Origin: an uncultured Muribaculaceae bacterium
GTDB lineage: Bacteria > Bacillota_I > Bacilli_A > RF39 > UBA660
Direction: 5' to 3'
Assembly: GCA_964384115.1 (NCBI GenBank)
Contig: CAYLJU010000001.1
Location: 6,469-70,468 of the forward strand
DNA: 64,000 bases
The notes under the pieces were generated by a model, which saw only the letters and a program-made list of their open reading frames with translations, was not told the DNA's origin and did no database searches. The position numbers were made by a program, and so were the translations under genes. Shown in pieces: positions 11,492 through 46,967 of this stretch. Position 1 is the stretch's first letter. Each line of letters opens with the position of its first letter.

Positions 11492-13648
11492 ATGGAAATT
11501 GAAAAATTATTAAACTTAAAATATTCTGATTTAGTAAATCAAATAGAAAATATTAAAAATTATGAAGAAAAAATAAAAATACTATTAAATGACAAAATAA
11601 TTGAAAAACTATCATCATATATATTTGATTTATTTACATCAGAAAGTATATATCGTCAAAAAATTTTCCTTAATAACCCAAACTTTTATAAAGCAGTATC
11701 ACCATCACTTCTATATACATATATAAATGGAGTAAACTCCAATAATCTATACAATTACCTAATAATTGATAATTTAATAAATCATATAAAACAAGCAGAT
11801 AATATAACTACTTTATTAGAAAAAATAGAAGATAAAAATAAATTAAAAAAACTAATAATGAAAGAAAATATATTTAAAATATTAGAAGAAGAAAATAATT
11901 ATAAACCATTGCTATTATTTACTGAAGATAAAGAAATAATTGAATACGTAAAAAATAAAAATATTAAAGTAAATATAAAAGAATTATATGAAAATAATAA
12001 TTATGACACTTTAAATGAAGATGAAATAAAATATATTCTATTAAAAGAAAAAACTGATAAAATATTAAAATTAATAAATATTGAAAAAACAAAAATGATC
12101 TTAAAAGAAAATCCAAAAATATTATATGAAATTTTTAAAAACAATATAGAAAAAGAAAAATTATTAAAAAATCAAATTTTTCAAAAATACGTAACAACTG
12201 AAATATTAGATAAAATAATACTTTTAATAGAACATAATATTTCATGCATAAAAATAATATTAGAGCAACCAATTTTATTAGATCAATTAGATGAATATTC
12301 ATTAGTAACATTACTAGCATTAAATTCAGTCGAATTATTGGAATATCAAAATAATATTAATATAACAAAAAAAATAAGTCATAAAGCACTTGAAAATACT
12401 ATTTATATGGCCCAAACATATAATATTAAATCATATCTATATTTTCTTTTATCAAAAAATATAGTCAAAAATATTAATGTAATTGAACTATTTTCCAAAA
12501 TAAAAATAGAAAAAAAAGAACTAGATCAAATAATAGAAAAAGTAAAGTTAAATAAATATAAAAAAATAATAATATATAATACATTAAAATATAAAGAAAA
12601 TAATATAAAAGAAATAGAAAATCAAATAAAAGAAGATATAAATAATTATAGATCAAATGAAATAATAGAAGAACTAAAAGAAGAATTAAAAGATGAAAGT
12701 ATATTAAGTGATATTGATATAGAACCAATATTAGAGTTTTTATATAAAAATCCTACATTTAAAATAACAAAAGCATATTTTGAAATAATACTATCTCGTC
12801 TATTTAGAAAAATAACTATATCTAGTTACCCAAATATAAAATTAAAAATTAAAAATATCTATGATGAAGGAATACAAAAAAATAATGAAATTATCATAAA
12901 TGCTAGAAACATAAAAGATACATTAAATAAAAATATCGAAATATTTTCTATTTACTTTCACGAATTAATACATGAAAAACAAGAAAAATCTATATACAAT
13001 AATACATATGATTATGAAATACTAAAACAATTAAAAGATGAATTATTAAGATCTATAATAGATACATATTATGATGAAAATTATTATAATATAAGTACTG
13101 AAGTAGAAGCCTTTATAAAAGGTGAAATAATGTCTATCAACTATTTTTATAAAAAATGTAAACAAATACCTGATATGGAAAAAAGAAAGAAAGAAATTAA
13201 AGAATATTGTATTTATAATAAAATTACAGACAGAAAAAATAATGAAAATATTTATTCTCTAGAATATTTATTTGATAAAATATACACTAAAGAAGAAATT
13301 AAAAAAGTAATTGCTATATATCCAATTTTATTATTTGAATACAATTCTGATGGAACCAAAAAATCATTACAAGAATTAATATTATTATATAGTAAAGCCA
13401 AATACAATTTAATAAACGAAAAAACAAATAAAAACATTCAAATATATGTGTTTTACAAAAGATTATTAGATGACATAATGTTAAAAAATCAAAAAATAAT
13501 TAATGAAGAAGAAATAATAAAATATAATGAAGAATTAAAAACAATACCTTATTATTCAAAAGAAACAATATATTATAAAATATATAATGAAAAATTATCT
13601 GAAATGAAATCATATATACCAAAAACAGTAATATTAAAAAAACGTTAA
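11492..13648 (+). CDS. large Lys/Ile/Asn-rich hypothetical protein with one HExxH motif
   Basis: ATG 11492 behind RBS AGGTGGTGA; 718 aa; FHELIHE only recognisable motif. Confidence 0.5.
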   Translation: MEIEKLLNLKYSDLVNQIENIKNYEEKIKILLNDKIIEKLSSYIFDLFTSESIYRQKIFLNNPNFYKAVSPSLLYTYINGVNSNNLYNYLIIDNLINHIKQADNITTLLEKIEDKNKLKKLIMKENIFKILEEENNYKPLLLFTEDKEIIEYVKNKNIKVNIKELYENNNYDTLNEDEIKYILLKEKTDKILKLINIEKTKMILKENPKILYEIFKNNIEKEKLLKNQIFQKYVTTEILDKIILLIEHNISCIKIILEQPILLDQLDEYSLVTLLALNSVELLEYQNNINITKKISHKALENTIYMAQTYNIKSYLYFLLSKNIVKNINVIELFSKIKIEKKELDQIIEKVKLNKYKKIIIYNTLKYKENNIKEIENQIKEDINNYRSNEIIEELKEELKDESILSDIDIEPILEFLYKNPTFKITKAYFEIILSRLFRKITISSYPNIKLKIKNIYDEGIQKNNEIIINARNIKDTLNKNIEIFSIYFHELIHEKQEKSIYNNTYDYEILKQLKDELLRSIIDTYYDENYYNISTEVEAFIKGEIMSINYFYKKCKQIPDMEKRKKEIKEYCIYNKITDRKNNENIYSLEYLFDKIYTKEEIKKVIAIYPILLFEYNSDGTKKSLQELILLYSKAKYNLINEKTNKNIQIYVFYKRLLDDIMLKNQKIINEEEIIKYNEELKTIPYYSKETIYYKIYNEKLSEMKSYIPKTVILKKR

Positions 13649-14586
13649 AAACGTTTTTTTGCTTGTTTAATTAAAATATCAATGATATCACTATAACTAT
13701 ATCCATCATGAATAAAAAGTTTAGGAAACATACTTATATCAGTAAAACCAGGAATAGTATTAATCTCATTAAAATAAAGTTCGTTATTATCCTCATCATA
13801 TAAAAAATCTACTCTAGCAAAAGAGAAACATTCAAGAATTTTAAATATCTTTCTAGCACATTCCTTAATTTCTAAGTTAATATTTTTACTTATATTAGCA
13901 TCAACTATAACTTCAGTATCCTTAATATATTTAGAATCAAAATCATAAAAACCATTACTCTTTATTTCTCCAATTGAAGAACAAATAAGACCATTATTTT
14001 CTATAATTCCAACCTCTAATTCTCTAGCTTTAATAAATTTTTCAACAACAATCTTTTTATCATATTTAAAAGCATTAGTTAAAGCTCTCACAAGTTCTCT
14101 ATTATTATTCGCAACACTAATACCTATACTAGAACCACCATTAGCAGGTTTAATAATAACAGGAAAATTAAGTTTTTCTATAATTTCTTTAATTTTACTT
14201 TTTTTATTAACAATAACATAAGGAATTTGTTTAATTTTATATTTATCTAAAATAATTTTACAAAAAGCCTTATCCATAGCAAGAGCACTACTAATAGTAT
14301 TTGATCCAACATAATTAATATTAAAAGTTTCAAAAACACCTTGCAATTTGCCATCTTCCCCAATATTACCATGAATAAGAGGGAAAATAACATCTTGTTT
14401 TTTTAAGAAATCAACAATATTGTTAATAATTATATTATCACAATACCAATTTCCATCTTTATCAACATAAATAGTTGATAATTCATATTTTTTAGTGTTT
14501 ATATTGTTAATAAAACTCTTAAATGACCTAACAGAAATATCATGCTCATATGATTTTCCACCATAAATAACTGCAATTTTATCCAT
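13645..14586 (-). CDS. ddl: D-alanine--D-alanine ligase
   Basis: MDKIAVIYGGKSYEHDISVRS..., ATP-grasp blocks (GEDGKLQG, SSIGISV), 313 aa. Confidence 0.9.
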   Translation of the reverse strand: MDKIAVIYGGKSYEHDISVRSFKSFINNINTKKYELSTIYVDKDGNWYCDNIIINNIVDFLKKQDVIFPLIHGNIGEDGKLQGVFETFNINYVGSNTISSALAMDKAFCKIILDKYKIKQIPYVIVNKKSKIKEIIEKLNFPVIIKPANGGSSIGISVANNNRELVRALTNAFKYDKKIVVEKFIKARELEVGIIENNGLICSSIGEIKSNGFYDFDSKYIKDTEVIVDANISKNINLEIKECARKIFKILECFSFARVDFLYDEDNNELYFNEINTIPGFTDISMFPKLFIHDGYSYSDIIDILIKQAKKRF

Positions 14587-16955: not shown

Positions 16956-16988
16956 GTAGCACACAAGTAGCCCACAGGTAGCCCACAC
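16956..16988. repeat. attL: three tandem 11-bp units GTAGCACACAA/GTAGCCCACAG/GTAGCCCACAC
   Basis: 22 bp AGTAGCCCACAGGTAGCCCACA (16966-16987) matches attR 46945-46966 at 21/22. Confidence 0.6.
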
Positions 16989-17030
16989 AAAAATGCAATA
17001 ATAAAAGAGGAATTAATCCTCTTATTTTTT

Positions 17031-18077
17031 TTACCTTAATTTATTAACTGCCACAAGTAAATCTTCAATATCTTTATGTGTATATACTTTATCAGTTATA
17101 TCTTTACTTGCATGACCAAGTATTCTTTTAGTACATAATTTATTTGCATCAGTTCTATCCATACGAGTAGAAAAAGTATGTCGTGTATCATGTGGTTTAT
17201 GTTCTTTATTAAATCCAAGTTGTTCAATTACTTTTTCCCATTTTTCGTGATAGAAATTCCAATATAACATTTGTTTATATTCGTGATTAAATATTAAATA
17301 TTCACTGCCAACTTCTTTTGCCCTGTCATACCATCTTTTTATTAAAGGAACAATCCTTTCATGGAATGGTATAACTCTATTTTTACCTGCATCAGTTTTT
17401 GAACCACCTCGCATGTATTTTTCTTCCATGTTGACATTTTCAATTTTAATATCCAATAATTCGCCAATTCGCATACCTGTATATATTAATATCAATATAC
17501 AGTCAATAAAATCCATTCTATCGACATTTTCCCATAGGATGTCTATTTCTTCCTCCTCAAAAGGAATTCGTTCTAATTTGGTCGTTTTTTTGCCTATATC
17601 GATATATTCTGAATATTTTCTTACATTCATATCATTTTTAATCGCAAAATCATACATTTGATGCCATAATATTTTAAATGCTTTCTTTGCTGACCATTTT
17701 TCACCCATACCATCAACAATTTGTTGTAAATGAGGTAGTTTAACATCGACAAAAGGCATATCCTTAATATCTTGACAGTAATTCCAACACATATTATATA
17801 CCTGTTGAGTTTTATGGGCAATTTTAGGATATTTTTCATCTTGCCATTTAGAATGTAATTTTTCTACTGTAATTGACCTAGCATCTATATCATAAGGTTT
17901 CTCATTATATAGTGCTAATTCTTGCAGTGCTTTTGTTCTAGTTTCAAAGTATCCAATAGTTTTTCTTATCTGTGTTCCATCTTCTTTCCAACCAACAGTT
18001 TTTCGTACTCTGTATGGTTTTCTTCTGTTGCCTGATAATTTTTCTATTGAACCATAATTATTAGGTAGTTTTATAAG
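17031..18077 (-). CDS. int: tyrosine-type phage integrase (N-terminal arm-binding region lacks canonical start; possible 1-nt frameshift)
   Basis: Catalytic HDTRHTF...RILGH...Y; frame stays open upstream of Met 17792 to 18077 encoding GSIEKLSGNRRKPYRVRKTVGWKEDGTQIRKTIGYFETRTKA (typical N-term) with no ATG/GTG/TTG; an ATG with SD lies +1 frame at 18081. Confidence 0.8.
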   Translation of the reverse strand, partial: LIKLPNNYGSIEKLSGNRRKPYRVRKTVGWKEDGTQIRKTIGYFETRTKALQELALYNEKPYDIDARSITVEKLHSKWQDEKYPKIAHKTQQVYNMCWNYCQDIKDMPFVDVKLPHLQQIVDGMGEKWSAKKAFKILWHQMYDFAIKNDMNVRKYSEYIDIGKKTTKLERIPFEEEEIDILWENVDRMDFIDCILILIYTGMRIGELLDIKIENVNMEEKYMRGGSKTDAGKNRVIPFHERIVPLIKRWYDRAKEVGSEYLIFNHEYKQMLYWNFYHEKWEKVIEQLGFNKEHKPHDTRHTFSTRMDRTDANKLCTKRILGHASKDITDKVYTHKDIEDLLVAVNKLR

Positions 18078-18197
18078 TCATCACCACCTATAATAAAATA
18101 ATATTTCATATATCAAAATCCTCCCATTTTATTGTATTTTTTAGCAATATTTGATATAATGAAATAGAAAAATCCAAAACATTATATCTTATATTTT

Positions 18198-18220
18198 GTT
18201 TTTAGTTTTGACCGACTAAA
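18198..18220. repeat. left copy of perfect 23-bp inverted repeat GTTTTTAGTTTTGACCGACTAAA
   Basis: Exact reverse complement occurs at 19404-19426; the pair brackets the cI/cro switch. Confidence 0.7.
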
Positions 18221-18277
18221 TGAGGTTTTTCAAATTGACTTACTGTTCCAGCAGTAGGTCTTTTTTTTCTTGCTAAA

Positions 18278-18967
18278 TTATTTTAGTTTTCTTCTTACTT
18301 CAATGGCTATACCCAAAATTTTAACAGGTTTAGTTAATATTTCATATTCATTAAAATAGTAGGGTTCATATTCATTATTTAATGGTTTTAGGATGATGCT
18401 TTTTTCTTGCTTTATAACTCTTTTAAATGTTGCATCATCACCATTTACCATAACAATGCAATCATCACCTGAATTACAATCATTTTGTTGTCTTATAATG
18501 ATAATATCACCAGTTTTATAATCAGGGTACATACTATCACCATCGACTTTTAATGCAAAATAATTTTCACCATTTCTTAACATAGAAGCAGGAAGTTCCT
18601 CGTATCCTAAAATATCTTCAATTGCCTCAATAGGTATTCCAGCAGGTACTTTACCTAGCACAGGGATTTTTATATTTTTTGATGTAGTTTCAATATATCT
18701 AGCATTGTCAATATTCAACTCTGATGGTTCTTTTTCTTCAAACCATTCTCTGTCTATATCGACATCATATCCCATTAGCCACCCCTCGCTAACATCTAGG
18801 GCAATAGCAAGTTTATGTAATTTATCTTGTTTGGCTTTATATTTTCCAGATAGGTAGTTGCTTATCAATGCTTTATCAAGTCCAGTTTTATTGCATAAGT
18901 CAACTTGTTTCATGCCTTTAAGTGACATCGCTTTCTTTAATCTATCAGAAAATTCCTCAACAATCAT
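18278..18967 (-). CDS. CI-like phage repressor (XRE HTH + S24 LexA-like peptidase domain)
   Basis: N-term ...MKQVDLCNKTGLDKALISNYLSG...; C-term ...LKVDGDSMYP...GDIIII... Ser/Lys S24 signature. Confidence 0.85.
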   Translation of the reverse strand: MIVEEFSDRLKKAMSLKGMKQVDLCNKTGLDKALISNYLSGKYKAKQDKLHKLAIALDVSEGWLMGYDVDIDREWFEEKEPSELNIDNARYIETTSKNIKIPVLGKVPAGIPIEAIEDILGYEELPASMLRNGENYFALKVDGDSMYPDYKTGDIIIIRQQNDCNSGDDCIVMVNGDDATFKRVIKQEKSIILKPLNNEYEPYYFNEYEILTKPVKILGIAIEVRRKLK

Positions 18968-19066
18968 ACATCAACCTCCTCAATAATTATTATATACACA
19001 AAATTAAGAAAAATCAATAAAAGTTGATGAAAAAATAAAAAAGTTTAGAAAAGTTAATAAAACATG

Positions 19067-19118
19067 TTGACAAATAAAATAAAAAAATATATACTTGTTT
19101 TAGTTGAGTAAACTCAAC
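19067..19118 (+). promoter_or_regulatory. rightward early promoter (TTGACA-17-TATACT) with downstream 7-2-7 palindrome GTTGAGTAAACTCAAC (operator candidate)
   Basis: TTGACA 19067-19072, TATACT 19090-19095, palindrome 19103-19118, then RBS GGAGGG. Confidence 0.45.
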
Positions 19119-19138
19119 AAGATAGGAGGGTATGCAAA

Positions 19139-19408
19139 TTGGATACATTATTTGATTATTCTAAATTAAAAGACTTGATTGAAACAACACAATATTTTGA
19201 TAAAAAGAGTAATAAAATAAAACTTTATAACAAAACATCATTTGCTAATGCAATTGGAATGTCGTATTATTCTTTATACAAAAAATTAAGAAATCAAGTA
19301 CCATTTACACAAAATGAAATAATTAAATCTGTAAAAATATTAAATATTGATGTTAAAGAAATACCAATTTATTTTTTTACAGAAAAAGTTAAGAAAACTC
19401 AATTTTAG
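19139..19408 (+). CDS. Cro-like HTH protein (first rightward gene)
   Basis: ...TSFANAIGMSYYSLYKKL... HTH-like; divergent from cI. Confidence 0.45.
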   Translation: MDTLFDYSKLKDLIETTQYFDKKSNKIKLYNKTSFANAIGMSYYSLYKKLRNQVPFTQNEIIKSVKILNIDVKEIPIYFFTEKVKKTQF

Positions 19409-19426
19409 TCGGTCAAAACTAAAAAC
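19404..19426. repeat. right copy of perfect 23-bp inverted repeat
   Basis: TTTAGTCGGTCAAAACTAAAAAC = reverse complement of 18198-18220; overlaps stop codon of 19139-19408. Confidence 0.7.
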
Positions 19427-19455
19427 AAAAAACTAAATATAAGAAAGGATTTTTT

Positions 19456-19647
19456 ATGAAAAAGATAACAATTAAACAAGCATCAGAATTGATGCACAAA
19501 TCACCACAATTTATAAGAGTGGGTTTACAAACAGGGAAATTACCATTTGGTTCAGCAGTAAAGGTGTCTAAAAGATGGAATTACATCATTTATCCTGAAA
19601 TGTTTTATCAATATATAGGTGTTAAGGAGGTTGAACAAAATGGCTAA
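19456..19647 (+). CDS. small DNA-binding protein (excisionase/MerR-type HTH-like)
   Basis: 63 aa; IKQASELMHKSPQFIRVGLQTGKLPF. Confidence 0.4.
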   Translation: MKKITIKQASELMHKSPQFIRVGLQTGKLPFGSAVKVSKRWNYIIYPEMFYQYIGVKEVEQNG

Positions 19648-19933
19648 AAATAATGATTATGATTTTGATTTAATCGTATCAAGCGATGATTTAAAAAGAA
19701 ACAGAGAAAAATGTTTAACTTCTTCAAAAAAGGTAGTTAAGAAAAGAAAATTAAAAAGATGGGTAAAAAATGTTTTATGGATGGTATTAGGTGCAGTTAT
19801 TGCAATCACTATATATCAATTATTCACAGTAGAAACAGTTAAAGAAACACCAGTTGGAAATTATACATGTAGAGGTGGAATATTCCAAATATGTACAGGA
19901 AACAATGAAGTTGCTGACTATTTGGGGGTGTAA
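19619..19933 (+). CDS. hypothetical membrane protein
   Basis: single TM helix. Confidence 0.3.
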   Translation: MLRRLNKMAKNNDYDFDLIVSSDDLKRNREKCLTSSKKVVKKRKLKRWVKNVLWMVLGAVIAITIYQLFTVETVKETPVGNYTCRGGIFQICTGNNEVADYLGV

Positions 19934-20185
19934 TTGATGAAGAAAAAGAGTCAAACATCTGAAATTATTAAATTATTAAGAAAACAAGGATATATTACAT
20001 CATTTGAAGCAATAGAAAGATTTGGTGCAACAAGATTATCAGGAATTATCTTTGTTTTAAGAAAAAGAGGTTTTGGTATAGAAACAGAAATGGTTCAAGG
20101 TAAAAATAGATATGGTCATTCAACCAATTATGCTATTTATCGCCTTACAAAAGATATAGCAGATGAGGATGGTGAAAATTTATGA
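19934..20185 (+). CDS. small winged-helix/HTH phage protein
   Basis: 83 aa basic protein, ...KLLRKQGYITSFEAIERFGATRLSGIIFVLRKRGF... Confidence 0.4.
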   Translation: MMKKKSQTSEIIKLLRKQGYITSFEAIERFGATRLSGIIFVLRKRGFGIETEMVQGKNRYGHSTNYAIYRLTKDIADEDGENL

Positions 20186-20298
20186 TTTTAAAGATTTTAG
20201 AATTTTTTGCAATTTTAATTATTGTGTTATTGGGGGTATTTATAGTAGCAATCTTATGTAAAAAGATGTGGCAAGAGTTAAGAAAGTGAGATGTCATC

Positions 20299-21165
20299 AT
20301 GAGTACATATAACAAAACTAAATTTTATTGGTTGCAACTAAAAGAAGATTTTTTTGATGATGATGCAATAGCATGGTTAGAAGAACAACAGCCAAAAGGA
20401 AAAGAATATGCTTTATTTTATTTAAAATTATGTTTGAAATCACTAAAAACAAATGGGATTTTAATTAGAAATGTTGGCAATTTTTTAATTCCCTATGACA
20501 ATAAAAAACTTGCAGAATTAACAAAAACAGATTTTGATACAGTCACAATTGCTATGGAATTATTAAAAAAAATAGGTTTAATTCAACTTCTTGATAATGG
20601 TGAAATTTATATAAAGCAACTAGAAAATCTTATTGGTTCAAAATCAATAGGTGCATTTAAAAAGGAACAACAAAGAGTATTAAAAAACAAGGGTGGACAA
20701 TTGTCTGCTAAATGTCCACCAGATATAGAACTAGAAATAGAAAAAGAACTAGAAATAGAAAAAGAATTAGATTTAGAGAATAATAACCCACAAGAACCTG
20801 TATTGCTTCCTGCTAATTTAAAAAAAGAAGAAATTATTTCCAAGACAGATTATGAATTAGAATTTGAAAAACTTTGGAATTTATATCCAAATAAAAAAGG
20901 AAAAACAAAATCCTTAACTAAATACATTTTAGCAAGAAAAAAAGGAACTACTTACGAACAGGTTTTAAATGGAATTAATAATTATATTGAATATATCAAA
21001 AAGAACAAAATTAGTACTCAATATATAAAACATGGTGATACATATTTTAATAATCAATGTTGGTTGGATGAATATAGAAATGAAATTAATAATAAAACAA
21101 AAAATGATGAACAATGGGCATTATTGAAAGGAGTTTATGATGGAACAATCAAGATTGATAAGTAG
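20299..21165 (+). CDS. phage replisome organizer (phage_rep_org_N / DnaD-like)
   Basis: N-terminus KFYWLQLKEDFFDDDAIAWLEEQ...YALFYLKLCLKSLKTNG matches replisome-organizer N-domain; internal acidic repeat linker. Confidence 0.8.
   Translation: MSTYNKTKFYWLQLKEDFFDDDAIAWLEEQQPKGKEYALFYLKLCLKSLKTNGILIRNVGNFLIPYDNKKLAELTKTDFDTVTIAMELLKKIGLIQLLDNGEIYIKQLENLIGSKSIGAFKKEQQRVLKNKGGQLSAKCPPDIELEIEKELEIEKELDLENNNPQEPVLLPANLKKEEIISKTDYELEFEKLWNLYPNKKGKTKSLTKYILARKKGTTYEQVLNGINNYIEYIKKNKISTQYIKHGDTYFNNQCWLDEYRNEINNKTKNDEQWALLKGVYDGTIKIDK
20728..20781 (+). repeat. 18-bp tandem repeat (2 perfect + 1 degenerate) inside replisome organizer gene: candidate origin iterons
   Basis: GAACTAGAAATAGAAAAA x2 (20728-20763) + GAATTAGATTTAGAGAAT. 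Confidence 0.45.
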
Positions 21166-46944: not shown

Positions 46945-46967
46945 AGTAGCACACAGGTAGCCCACAA
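46945..46967. repeat. attR: two tandem 11-bp units GTAGCACACAG/GTAGCCCACAA
   Basis: AGTAGCACACAGGTAGCCCACA matches attL 16966-16987 at 21/22. Confidence 0.6.

What the first reader, a model, noticed from the sequence alone, without database searches (positions are those of the whole stretch)
18198..19426. Perfect 23-bp inverted repeat brackets the cI/cro genetic switch
GTTTTTAGTTTTGACCGACTAAA (18198-18220) is the exact reverse complement of 19404-19426. The right copy overlaps the stop codon of the cro-like gene; the left copy lies ~60 nt beyond the cI stop. A perfect 23-mer is unlikely by chance in a 30-kb element, which suggests function. Possibilities include paired distal operator sites for repressor looping, boundaries of an exchangeable immunity cassette, or sites for an invertible or recombinational switch. 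No invertase is adjacent.
Basis: seen in the sequence. Interest (0 to 1): 0.5.

Follow-up and report, generated by a model that had tools for sequence, protein, structure and literature searches.

The report
Prophage small RNA and its target
The inverted repeat around the prophage's cI/cro switch is best read as a small antisense RNA gene and its matching target site on the early lytic transcript, with a variable loop that changes in step at both sites across related gut phages, which suggests an RNA lock-and-key layer of phage immunity.

Summary
The repeat is real. It is a perfect 27-mer (18194-18220 / 19404-19430) inside about 65 nt of imperfect complementarity, and shuffles predict none.

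The left arm lies in a ~105-nt unit (18161-18268, + strand) between int and cI. The unit has an invariant extended -10 promoter and an intrinsic terminator. Conservation across relatives starts and stops at exactly those two signals. The right arm is a mirror hairpin on the rightward early transcript. It holds the cro stop codon and runs into the ribosome-binding site of the next gene, a small Xis-like winged-helix protein.

About 60 related gut-phage and MAG loci carry 24 versions of the 6-9-nt hairpin loop. Every locus that still has its early region carries the exactly complementary loop 1.2-2.3 kb away on the same strand (99% paired, 13 positions changed on both sides, 0/500 shuffles). Loop identity does not track cI, Cro, the Xis-like protein or integrase. 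Most arm differences are G·U-compatible only for + strand RNAs.

Best explanation: a trans-acting kissing-loop antisense RNA that represses the early transcript. It works like P1/P7 c4 but is not homologous to it.

Repressor operators, an invertible switch and cassette ends are not supported. A separate operator-like palindrome does abut the right arm. RNA expression is untested.

The parts
18132..18160 (+). Promoter of the small RNA: -35 TTGTAT (18132-18137), 17-nt spacer, extended -10 TGATATAAT (18152-18160)
   Evidence: Read from the sequence. TGATATAAT is invariant in all 42 distinct copies, while the DNA upstream of it varies freely. The consensus scan did not list it because the -35 matches only 3 of 6.
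18161..18268 (+). Predicted ~105-nt small antisense RNA gene. The start of transcription is inferred at about 18161-18167. The 5' arm GAAAAATCC is at 18167-18175.
   Evidence: Covariance model R1 hit at 115.7 bits, E 7e-22. The unit is conserved almost base for base in relatives from the -10 to the terminator T-run. The consensus fold has a closing helix, a small hairpin, the variable-loop hairpin and a terminator. No Rfam match. There is no conserved ORF: ATG-TGA in most relatives.
18194..18220 (+). Left arm of the perfect 27-nt inverted repeat. It holds the variable-loop hairpin: stem 18201-18206 / 18215-18220, loop TTTGACCG 18207-18214.
   Evidence: Loop positions are the most variable columns of the unit.
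18222..18231 (+). GAGGTTTTTC, predicted to pair with the 5' arm inside the free RNA (closing helix P1)
   Evidence: RNAalifold consensus: 9 pairs, invariant except U-A to U-G in 4 sequences.
18237..18268 (+). Intrinsic terminator of the small RNA: 10-pair stem-loop plus T8. It ends 9 nt before the cI stop codon.
   Evidence: Terminator scan. The stem is kept in relatives through G-U / A-U / C-G changes. Sequence similarity among relatives ends at the T-run.
18278..18967 (-). cI-like repressor (HTH_3 + Peptidase_S24), convergent with the small RNA
   Evidence: Pfam 8e-30 / 1e-8, PHROG 4.
19139..19408 (+). cro-like gene (DUF739). Its stop codon TAG (19406-19408) lies in the 5' stem of the target hairpin.
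19392..19456 (+). Predicted target region on the rightward early mRNA, complementary to nt ~7-73 of the small RNA
   Evidence: RNAduplex -53.5 kcal/mol against -16.2 +/- 3.0 for shuffled targets. Cognate pairs average -51.6 and non-cognate pairs -37.5.
19404..19430 (+). Right arm of the perfect 27-nt repeat: target hairpin (stem 19404-19409 / 19418-19423, loop CGGTCAAA 19410-19417) plus A-rich tail
   Evidence: It co-varies with the left arm in 20 distinct pairs.
19438..19455 (+). TATAAGA, Shine-Dalgarno AAAGGA (19444-19449) and GGATTTTTT (19447-19455), complementary to TCTTATA and GAAAAATCC of the small RNA
   Evidence: Both partners are invariant in nearly all relatives, even where the downstream gene differs. 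There is therefore no covariation test for this block.
19456..19647 (+). orf63, the first gene after cro: a small winged-helix protein, Xis/BldC-like
   Evidence: PHROG 6058, function unknown. No Pfam hit. AlphaFold2 pLDDT 89, H-H-E-E-H. Best PDB match is mycobacteriophage Pukovnik Xis 4j2n (probability 0.97, E 0.095), then BldC.
17031..18074 (-). Tyrosine integrase, divergent from the small RNA promoter. Any int transcript that starts upstream of the promoter would be antisense to the small RNA.
   Evidence: Pfam Phage_integrase, translation, relatives.

Best explanation
The two arms are the DNA footprint of an RNA-RNA antisense pair.

A ~105-nt small RNA is transcribed rightward from its own extended -10 promoter between int and cI, and ends at an intrinsic terminator just before the cI stop codon. 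It presents a 6-9-nt loop (8 nt here) on a weak A/U stem. The rightward early transcript from PR carries the mirror hairpin at the cro stop codon, with the exactly complementary loop.

Inferred pathway:
1. The two loops kiss.
2. Pairing spreads through the U-rich and A-rich flanks to give a 27-31-bp perfect duplex.
3. The invariant 5' arm of the small RNA (GAAAAAUCC) is masked in the free RNA by an internal helix. Once released, it pairs with GGAUUUUUU between the Shine-Dalgarno sequence and the AUG of the next gene, a small Xis-like winged-helix protein.

Predicted outcome: blocked translation of that gene and/or RNase III cleavage of the early transcript. This would back up cI in the lysogen and act on incoming phages that carry the same loop, as a phage-specific RNA immunity.

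The same RNA is perfectly antisense to any cI-to-int read-through transcript.

Shown here: the repeat, its conservation, arm-to-arm covariation, the transcription signals, and independence from the neighbouring proteins. Inferred: that the RNA is made, the direction of regulation (repression), and the immunity role.
For: (1) Transcription-unit signature. Across 42 distinct copies, sequence variation stops at the extended -10 TGATATAAT and resumes after the terminator T-run. Inside the unit only the loop, a short spacer and the terminator loop vary. The terminator was detected independently.

(2) Covariation. There are 24 loop variants. Every locus with an intact early region has the complementary loop on the same strand, 1157-2338 nt away and always at the same place (cro end, next gene's RBS). 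On 20 distinct pairs, 99.1% of cells pair, 13 pairs changed on both sides, 61 cells changed on both sides, and 0/500 shuffles reached this. Slid controls gave 32-56% pairing. In the permutation test, 16 of 17 variants were cognate against a mean of 1.06.

(3) No neighbouring protein tracks the loop. L018 and L023 have cI HTH 100% and Cro 93% identical, with the module 94.8% identical, yet different loops in both arms. L035 and L071 share a loop with 47% / 48% identical cI and Cro. L002, L003, L064 and L069 have identical orf63 and four different loops. L052 and L058 carry unrelated repressors.

(4) Strand. Five of the seven internal arm differences are U(sRNA)·G(target) wobbles. They would be A·C mismatches if the opposite strands were the RNAs.

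(5) Energetics. -53.5 kcal/mol against -16.2 for shuffled targets. Cognate pairs are about 14 kcal/mol better than non-cognate pairs.

(6) The variable bases sit in hairpin loops in the consensus fold, as in kissing-loop antisense RNAs.

(7) Remnant elements that lost the early region (L066, L005) keep int-sRNA-cI and lack only the target.
Against: There are no expression data of any kind. The start of transcription is inferred. The -35 is weak and variable, and absent in L033- and L055-type copies, so the promoter rests on the extended -10.

Arm-to-arm covariation alone cannot separate RNA pairing from two identical DNA sites. The case for RNA rests on the transcription signals, the wobble asymmetry (few events, probably not independent) and the lack of a co-varying protein.

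Pairing of the 5' arm with the RBS has no covariation support because both sides are invariant, and it is weaker in L058 and L092.

The hairpin stems are short and A/U-rich.

The sign of regulation is unknown: repression, activation, or titration of the small RNA by the early transcript.

Loops vary about as much as unconstrained flanking DNA, so diversifying selection is suggested rather than demonstrated.
Confidence: 0.7

Rival explanations
1. The arms are two copies of a DNA binding site for a phage protein (cI, Cro, the Xis-like protein or integrase). For example, they could be distal operators that loop the switch region.
For: Two identical sites in inverted orientation flank the switch, and each arm is itself a partial palindrome. 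Distal operators are known in Gram-positive phages (TP901-1 OD, from my own knowledge). A genuine operator-like palindrome lies right next to the right arm.
Against: The arm motif is absent from the cI-cro intergenic region, where the main operators must be. Those operators are a different palindrome, GTTRAG-N4-CTYAAY. The variable bases do not track cI, Cro, orf63 or int sequence. The variable part is the asymmetric centre of the palindrome, not its half-sites. A protein site does not explain the invariant promoter and terminator framing the left arm, or the wobble-type differences.
Confidence: 0.08
2. The arms are conserved module boundaries (recombination linkers) for swapping the cI/cro immunity cassette. 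They are kept identical by gene conversion and have no regulatory role of their own.
For: cI and Cro types between the arms are mosaic, while the flanking small-RNA scaffold and the orf63 RBS are nearly invariant. The left unit looks like an inverted duplicate of the cro-end / orf63 leader.
Against: Arms in inverted orientation cannot exchange a cassette with each other. Recombination between them would invert cI-cro, and this is never seen in 53 loci. Linkers should be conserved, not carry a variable 6-9-nt core. Conversion copies sequence but does not generate 24 variants. L018 and L023 differ at both loops within a 95% identical module, so no cassette swap is involved. It also does not explain why conservation is bounded by a promoter and a terminator.
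Confidence: 0.07
3. An RNA pair as in the best explanation, but with the opposite logic. In one version the early transcript's hairpin is a sponge that titrates the small RNA on induction. This relieves the small RNA's cis-antisense block on the cI-to-int read-through transcript, so that Int appears together with Xis. In another version the small RNA activates orf63 translation.
For: The small RNA is perfectly antisense to whatever is transcribed from cI towards int. The terminator hairpin has no U-tract on the minus strand, so cI transcripts probably read through. The int RBS abuts the small RNA promoter, so int mRNA must start inside or beyond the small RNA gene.
Against: Direct complementarity to the Shine-Dalgarno-to-AUG spacer of orf63 is the usual signature of repression. 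No int promoter or read-through has been shown.
Confidence: 0.12
4. An invertible or site-specific recombinational switch that flips the 1.2-kb cI-cro segment.
For: Perfect inverted repeats bracket a regulatory segment.
Against: There is no invertase. The only recombinase is the prophage tyrosine integrase, which has its own candidate att core elsewhere. The segment has a single orientation in all 53 related loci from independent assemblies. Inversion would point PR into int and separate cro from the early operon.
Confidence: 0.01

Closest known systems
c4 antisense RNA of phages P1 and P7 (immI region; target icd-ant mRNA)
   Same: A phage-encoded, trans-acting antisense RNA of similar size (77 nt) whose exposed loop bases pair with sites at or near a ribosome-binding site on a lytic-pathway transcript. 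Matched changes in RNA and target define heteroimmunity between related phages (PMC12197685, and my own knowledge).
   Different: No sequence or structure homology: Rfam, which contains the C4 family, gave no hit. c4 is processed from the same operon transcript as its target and uses two short recognition elements. Here the RNA has its own promoter and terminator, lies between int and cI 1.2 kb from the target, and uses one loop plus a long flanking duplex. The target precedes an Xis-like gene rather than an antirepressor. The hosts are low-GC gut Bacillota rather than enterobacteria. There are 24 specificities rather than two.
P4 CI RNA with seqA/seqC, and P22 sar RNA
   Same: An RNA rather than a protein supplies, or adds to, prophage immunity by pairing with early transcripts.
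   Different: P4 CI causes premature transcription termination and is cut from the leader of the operon it controls. sar is cis-encoded opposite ant. Neither has a separate gene in the int-cI gap or a hypervariable loop (my own knowledge; sar in PMC12197685).
Plasmid copy-control antisense RNAs (CopA/CopT of R1, RNA I/RNA II of ColE1)
   Same: Recognition starts with a loop-loop kiss between mirror hairpins and then spreads into a long duplex. Loop sequence sets specificity (incompatibility groups). The loops here start UUUG, which fits the YUNR U-turn motif typical of such loops (inference from the sequence).
   Different: Those RNAs are cis-encoded, so complementarity is automatic. Here the two sites are separate loci and must co-evolve.
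Distal operators of Gram-positive temperate phages (for example OD of TP901-1)
   Same: A site at the far end of the cro-side gene that adds to the intergenic operators. The 16-bp palindrome at 19388-19403 fits this description.
   Different: That palindrome is a separate element from the 23/27-bp inverted repeat. The repeat itself shares no motif with the intergenic operators and does not track repressor type.

Membership tests
C4 antisense RNA family (Rfam; P1/P7-type) | Match to the family covariance model (sequence and structure) | tested here: not met
   cmscan of 17000-21000 against all 4227 Rfam 15 families at E up to 10 returned only a chance snoZ182 hit elsewhere.
C4 antisense RNA family (Rfam; P1/P7-type) | The RNA is processed from the same transcript that carries its target, upstream of an antirepressor operon | tested here: not met
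   The RNA has its own promoter and terminator, and it lies on the other side of cI from the target. The downstream gene is an Xis-like winged-helix protein.
Trans-acting kissing-loop antisense RNA (functional class) | A discrete transcription unit: promoter, non-coding body and intrinsic terminator | tested here: met
   Invariant extended -10, terminator, conservation bounded by both, and no conserved ORF. This is sequence evidence only.
Trans-acting kissing-loop antisense RNA (functional class) | Complementarity to the target is maintained by compensatory change across relatives | tested here: met
   99.1% paired, 13 pairs with changes on both sides, 0/500 shuffles. 16 of 17 variants cognate against a permuted mean of 1.06.
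Trans-acting kissing-loop antisense RNA (functional class) | The complementary bases are presented in hairpin loops on both RNAs | tested here: met
   RNAalifold consensus for the small RNA and single-sequence folds of both partners.
Trans-acting kissing-loop antisense RNA (functional class) | The RNA is expressed and changes target expression | not testable with these tools
   No transcriptome or genetic data are available here.
cI/Cro operator sites (distal operators for looping) | The same motif as the operators in the cI-cro intergenic region | tested here: not met
   There is no copy of the arm, or of TTTAGT-N8-ACTAAA, in 18968-19138. The intergenic repeats are a different palindrome.
cI/Cro operator sites (distal operators for looping) | The site sequence co-varies with the DNA-binding domain of the repressor | tested here: not met
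   L018 and L023 have identical HTH regions and different loops. L035 and L071 have 47% identical HTH regions and the same loop.
Invertible DNA switch | An adjacent invertase, and both orientations present in populations | tested here: not met
   No invertase. One orientation in 53 loci. Read-level data were not available.

The most novel reading that the evidence does not exclude
A second immunity determinant made of RNA, independent of the cI repressor. It would be a modular lock-and-key pair, with a small RNA loop and an mRNA loop under diversifying selection. It would define two dozen or more heteroimmunity groups among prophages of uncultured low-GC gut Bacillota, and it would couple control of the Xis-like gene, and possibly int, to phage identity. 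Its invariant anti-RBS arm would be masked until the cognate loops have kissed.
Probability: 0.35. Interest if true: 0.8.

Novelty: new variant of a known kind. Interest (0 to 1): 0.62.

Why it matters
Antisense-RNA immunity is textbook for a few enterobacterial phages (P1/P7, P4, P22). I found no description of it for cI/Cro-type siphophages of Gram-positive bacteria, in Rfam or in the searchable literature.

If this pair works as proposed, immunity specificity in a widespread group of human and animal gut prophages would be set by two independent codes: repressor with operator, and RNA loop with RNA loop. That bears on predicting which prophages exclude which phages in gut communities.

The system also provides more than 20 natural, orthogonal small RNA/target pairs built on one invariant scaffold. 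These form a ready-made test set for studying how kissing-loop specificity evolves across two unlinked sites, and they could be useful as orthogonal riboregulators.

It also shows that a plain inverted repeat around a genetic switch can mark a small RNA and its target.

Tried and rejected
- BLAST of 17000-20500 against 50,697 deposited phage genomes found no relatives. The only hit was a 168-nt match in a staphylococcal replisome-organizer gene. The exact 20-mer is absent from IMG/VR. Relatives had to be reached through the cI protein and through the conserved RNA scaffold.
- Rfam gave no family.
- Pfam gave nothing for orf63 even at E 10. A PDB sequence search gave nothing meaningful. Only fold comparison pointed to Xis/BldC, and weakly.
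- My first repeat scan looked only 400 nt beyond cI, so L010, L025 and L005 appeared to lack the repeat. The covariance model then found the RNA in L010 and L025 650 nt beyond cI, with a cognate target 1842 nt away. L005 and L066 proved to be remnants without the cro side.
- More distant phages (L011-L014, L026-L032; cI 27-56% identical, or matching the query over only part of its length) have no copy by the covariance model.
- An automatic palindrome picker for the cro-end operator was misled by the TTTTTTTACAGAAAAA palindrome in many loci, so the operator comparison rests on only three relatives. With 2 mismatches the operator pattern is not enriched window-wide. Only the two perfect copies and their clustering are notable.
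- A peptide in the small RNA was considered and rejected. The ATG at 18221 opens a short ORF only in the window, and relatives read ATG-TGA.
- A guide RNA for a TnpB/IscB/TldR-type protein was considered and rejected. No such gene is nearby, and the variable part is only 6-9 nt inside a hairpin.
- No tRNA lies at the attachment site.
Full report
**Observation**

The 23-mer at 18198-18220 is the exact reverse complement of 19404-19426. The window has no other copy at up to three mismatches, and 100 dinucleotide-preserving shuffles gave none. The perfect repeat is in fact 27 nt (18194-18220 / 19404-19430). It sits inside imperfect complementarity of 50 nt at 82%, plus a second register that reaches 19455. 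Each arm is also a hairpin, TTTAGT-8 nt-ACTAAA.

The gene assignments hold:
- cI-like repressor (HTH_3 + Peptidase_S24), 18278-18967, minus strand
- cro-like DUF739 gene, 19139-19408, with its TAG stop inside the right arm
- tyrosine integrase, 17031-18074, minus strand
- a 63-codon ORF starting at 19456

A 15-nt direct repeat at 16973 and 46952 is a candidate att core and gives a prophage of about 30 kb.

**What surrounds the left arm**

On the + strand the left arm is preceded by TTGTAT, a 17-nt spacer and TGATATAAT (an extended -10, 18132-18160). It is followed by a 10-pair stem-loop with a T8 run (18237-18268). That terminator ends 9 nt before the cI stop codon. The arm therefore lies inside a compact rightward unit of about 105 nt that converges on cI and diverges from int.

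**Relatives**

Deposited phage genomes contain nothing similar. Searching with the cI protein found 10 viral contigs and 11 MAG contigs with cI 63-84% identical. The MAGs are labelled uncultured Bacilli, "Tenericutes" and Clostridia.

Almost all of these loci have a perfect 17-28-nt inverted repeat at the same two positions. The outer parts are conserved (TTTTGTTTTT(T)AGT ... ACTAA). The centre differs between phages but matches between the two arms of each phage.

Scans with the conserved scaffold added viral and metagenome loci, and a covariance model added L010 and L025. In total there are 24 loop variants. Every locus that has enough sequence and an intact early region carries the exactly complementary loop on the same strand, 1157-2338 nt away. 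It is always at the end of the cro-side gene and in front of the next gene's ribosome-binding site.

The exceptions are explained. L066 and L005 are remnants that keep int, the small unit and cI but have lost the cro side. Other loci are cut by contig ends.

It fails to refute: the repeat is present, with different sequences.

**Covariation**

I joined the small-RNA arm and the target arm of 20 distinct pairs and counted the intermolecular pairs.
- 99.1% of cells pair.
- 13 of 24 positions show changes on both sides, in 61 cells.
- No shuffle out of 500 reaches this.
- Sliding the partner by 1-3 columns drops pairing to 32-56%.
- The central loop columns carry all four Watson-Crick pair types.
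- With one row per loop variant, 16 of 17 are cognate, against 1.06 expected under permutation. The one failure is at the outermost position.

**RNA or DNA**

Four observations favour RNA pairing.

1. Across 42 distinct copies of the left unit, variability is high upstream of the -10. It falls to zero at TGATATAAT and stays near zero through the body, except for the loop, a short spacer and the terminator loop. It rises again immediately after the T-run. That is the footprint of a transcription unit. Part of the body's invariance in scaffold-derived loci comes from how they were found, but the loci found through cI show the same pattern.

2. No neighbouring protein tracks the loop.
   - L018 and L023 have identical cI HTH regions, 93% identical Cro and a 94.8% identical module, yet differ at two loop positions in both arms.
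   - L035 and L071 share a loop although cI and Cro are only 47-48% identical.
   - L002, L003, L064 and L069 have identical orf63 proteins and four different loops.
   - L052 and L058 have unrelated repressors but keep the pair.

3. Where the arms differ, five of the seven internal differences put a U in the left-arm RNA opposite a G in the right-arm RNA. This is tolerated if both + strands are the RNAs. It would be an A·C mismatch for the opposite strands. These events are few and probably share ancestry, so the support is modest.

4. The variable bases lie in hairpin loops. The RNAalifold consensus has a closing helix between the 5' arm GAAAAAUCC and G.GAUUUUUC, a small AU hairpin, the variable-loop hairpin and the terminator. 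One-sided changes are all of the wobble type.

Predicted duplex energy is -53.5 kcal/mol, against -16.2 +/- 3.0 for shuffled targets. Cognate pairs are on average 14 kcal/mol better than non-cognate pairs.

**The target side**

The duplex predicted for the window runs from 19392 to 19456. It covers the last cro codons, the hairpin with the stop codon, the A-rich tail, TATAAGA, and GGAUUUUUU between the Shine-Dalgarno sequence and the AUG of orf63. GGATTTTTT and the small RNA's GAAAAATCC are both nearly invariant, even where the downstream gene is a different one (L033, L055, L089, L010). This block is therefore consistent with RBS occlusion but cannot be tested by covariation.

orf63 has no Pfam family. 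A confident AlphaFold2 model (pLDDT 89) is a small winged helix. Its best solved matches are mycobacteriophage Pukovnik Xis and BldC (probability 0.97 and 0.87, but E about 0.1). The gene is probably an excisionase-like DNA-binding protein. That assignment is tentative.

**Mechanism proposed**

A constitutively made small RNA recognises the early transcript of its own phage type by a loop-loop kiss. Pairing spreads into a 27-31-bp duplex. The 5' arm, masked in the free RNA by the closing helix, then covers the RBS of the first gene after cro. RNase III cleavage of the long duplex is a likely addition.

The effect would be to silence leaky or incoming early transcripts, as a backup to cI with its own specificity code.

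The small RNA is also perfectly antisense to any cI-to-int read-through. The terminator has no U-tract on the minus strand, and the int RBS abuts the small RNA promoter. It may therefore control int as well. Alternatively, the early transcript may titrate it on induction.

These steps are inference. Only the sequence relationships are shown.

**Rivals**

- Operators for looping. Not supported for the repeat itself. However, a different 16-bp palindrome (GTTRAG-N4-CTYAAY) has its only two perfect copies in the window at the PR start (19103-19118) and at the last cro codons (19388-19403), and weaker copies at 19003 and 19043. In L071, L023 and L018 the cro-end palindrome has another sequence, and it again matches sites in that phage's own intergenic region. 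That looks like a distal operator lying directly against the right arm.
- Cassette boundaries. The module between the arms is mosaic, so the conserved flanks may well serve recombination. This does not account for the co-varying loop or for the transcription signals.
- Inversion. Excluded as far as assemblies can show: one orientation in 53 loci and no invertase.

**Comparison with known systems**

In function the closest system is the c4 RNA of P1/P7, whose matched differences with its target give heteroimmunity (PMC12197685). In pairing mechanism the closest are the plasmid kissing-loop RNAs. It is not a member of the C4 family. It differs in gene organisation, target gene, host range and number of specificities.

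Five full-text searches found no description of such an RNA in Gram-positive cI/Cro phages. I therefore rate it a new variant of a known kind.

**Verdict**

Confidence is about 0.7 that the repeat reflects RNA-RNA pairing. Confidence is lower, about 0.5, for repression of the Xis-like gene, and about 0.35 for a true heteroimmunity role. Expression of the RNA is the key untested step.

Noticed in passing
window 19003-19018, 19043-19058, 19103-19118, 19388-19403: An operator-like 16-bp palindrome, GTTRAG-N4-CTYAAY. The only two perfect copies in the 64 kb are just after the PR -10 and in the last codons of cro, touching the right arm. Two weaker copies lie near the cI promoter. In L071, L023 and L018 the cro-end palindrome has a different sequence that matches 2-4 sites in that phage's own intergenic region. 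It is a likely distal operator, like TP901-1 OD.
   Followed up: partly
window 18063-18113 (minus strand): The integrase has no ATG/GTG/TTG start. Relatives begin ATG AAA CTA CCT (MKLPN...). The window reads ATA AAA CTA CCT, preceded by a ~33-nt insertion with its own Shine-Dalgarno sequence and a 12-codon ORF. Either int starts at ATA or the prophage has lost int expression.
   Followed up: partly
window 16973-16987 and 46952-46966: A 15-nt G+C-rich direct repeat, CACAGGTAGCCCACA, lies just beyond the int stop and just beyond the last large rightward ORF. It is a candidate att core and gives a ~30-kb prophage. No tRNA is present.
   Followed up: partly
L066 1-4300; L005 2300-5876: Two relatives are remnants that keep int, the small RNA gene and cI. 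The cro side is replaced by unrelated genes (a membrane protein in L066, tail-fibre-like genes and a TYIH repeat in L005). The small RNA therefore persists without its target.
   Followed up: yes
L066 1619-1825; L005 4480-4674: Many relatives carry a conserved 64-68-aa ORF (M..RIRT.SKIGKGKY.TSSWK.SDYL...) between the small RNA terminator and cI. It is absent from the window, where the terminator almost touches the cI stop.
   Followed up: no
L002/L004, L003/L006, L010, L041 (all from IMG/VR metagenome 3300045988): One metagenome holds at least four different loop variants of the small RNA (CGACCAAG, TTGTCTG, TTTAGCG, TTGACCG). Multiple specificities therefore coexist in one community.
   Followed up: no
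window 12001-14000: G+C falls to 17.6% here, against about 26% elsewhere in the window.
   Followed up: no
window 19368-19383 and homologous positions in relatives: The conserved Cro C-terminus (YFFT.KV) is encoded by a near-palindrome, TTTTTTTACAGAAAAA, just upstream of the operator-like palindrome. It may be coincidental in A/T-rich coding sequence.
   Followed up: no
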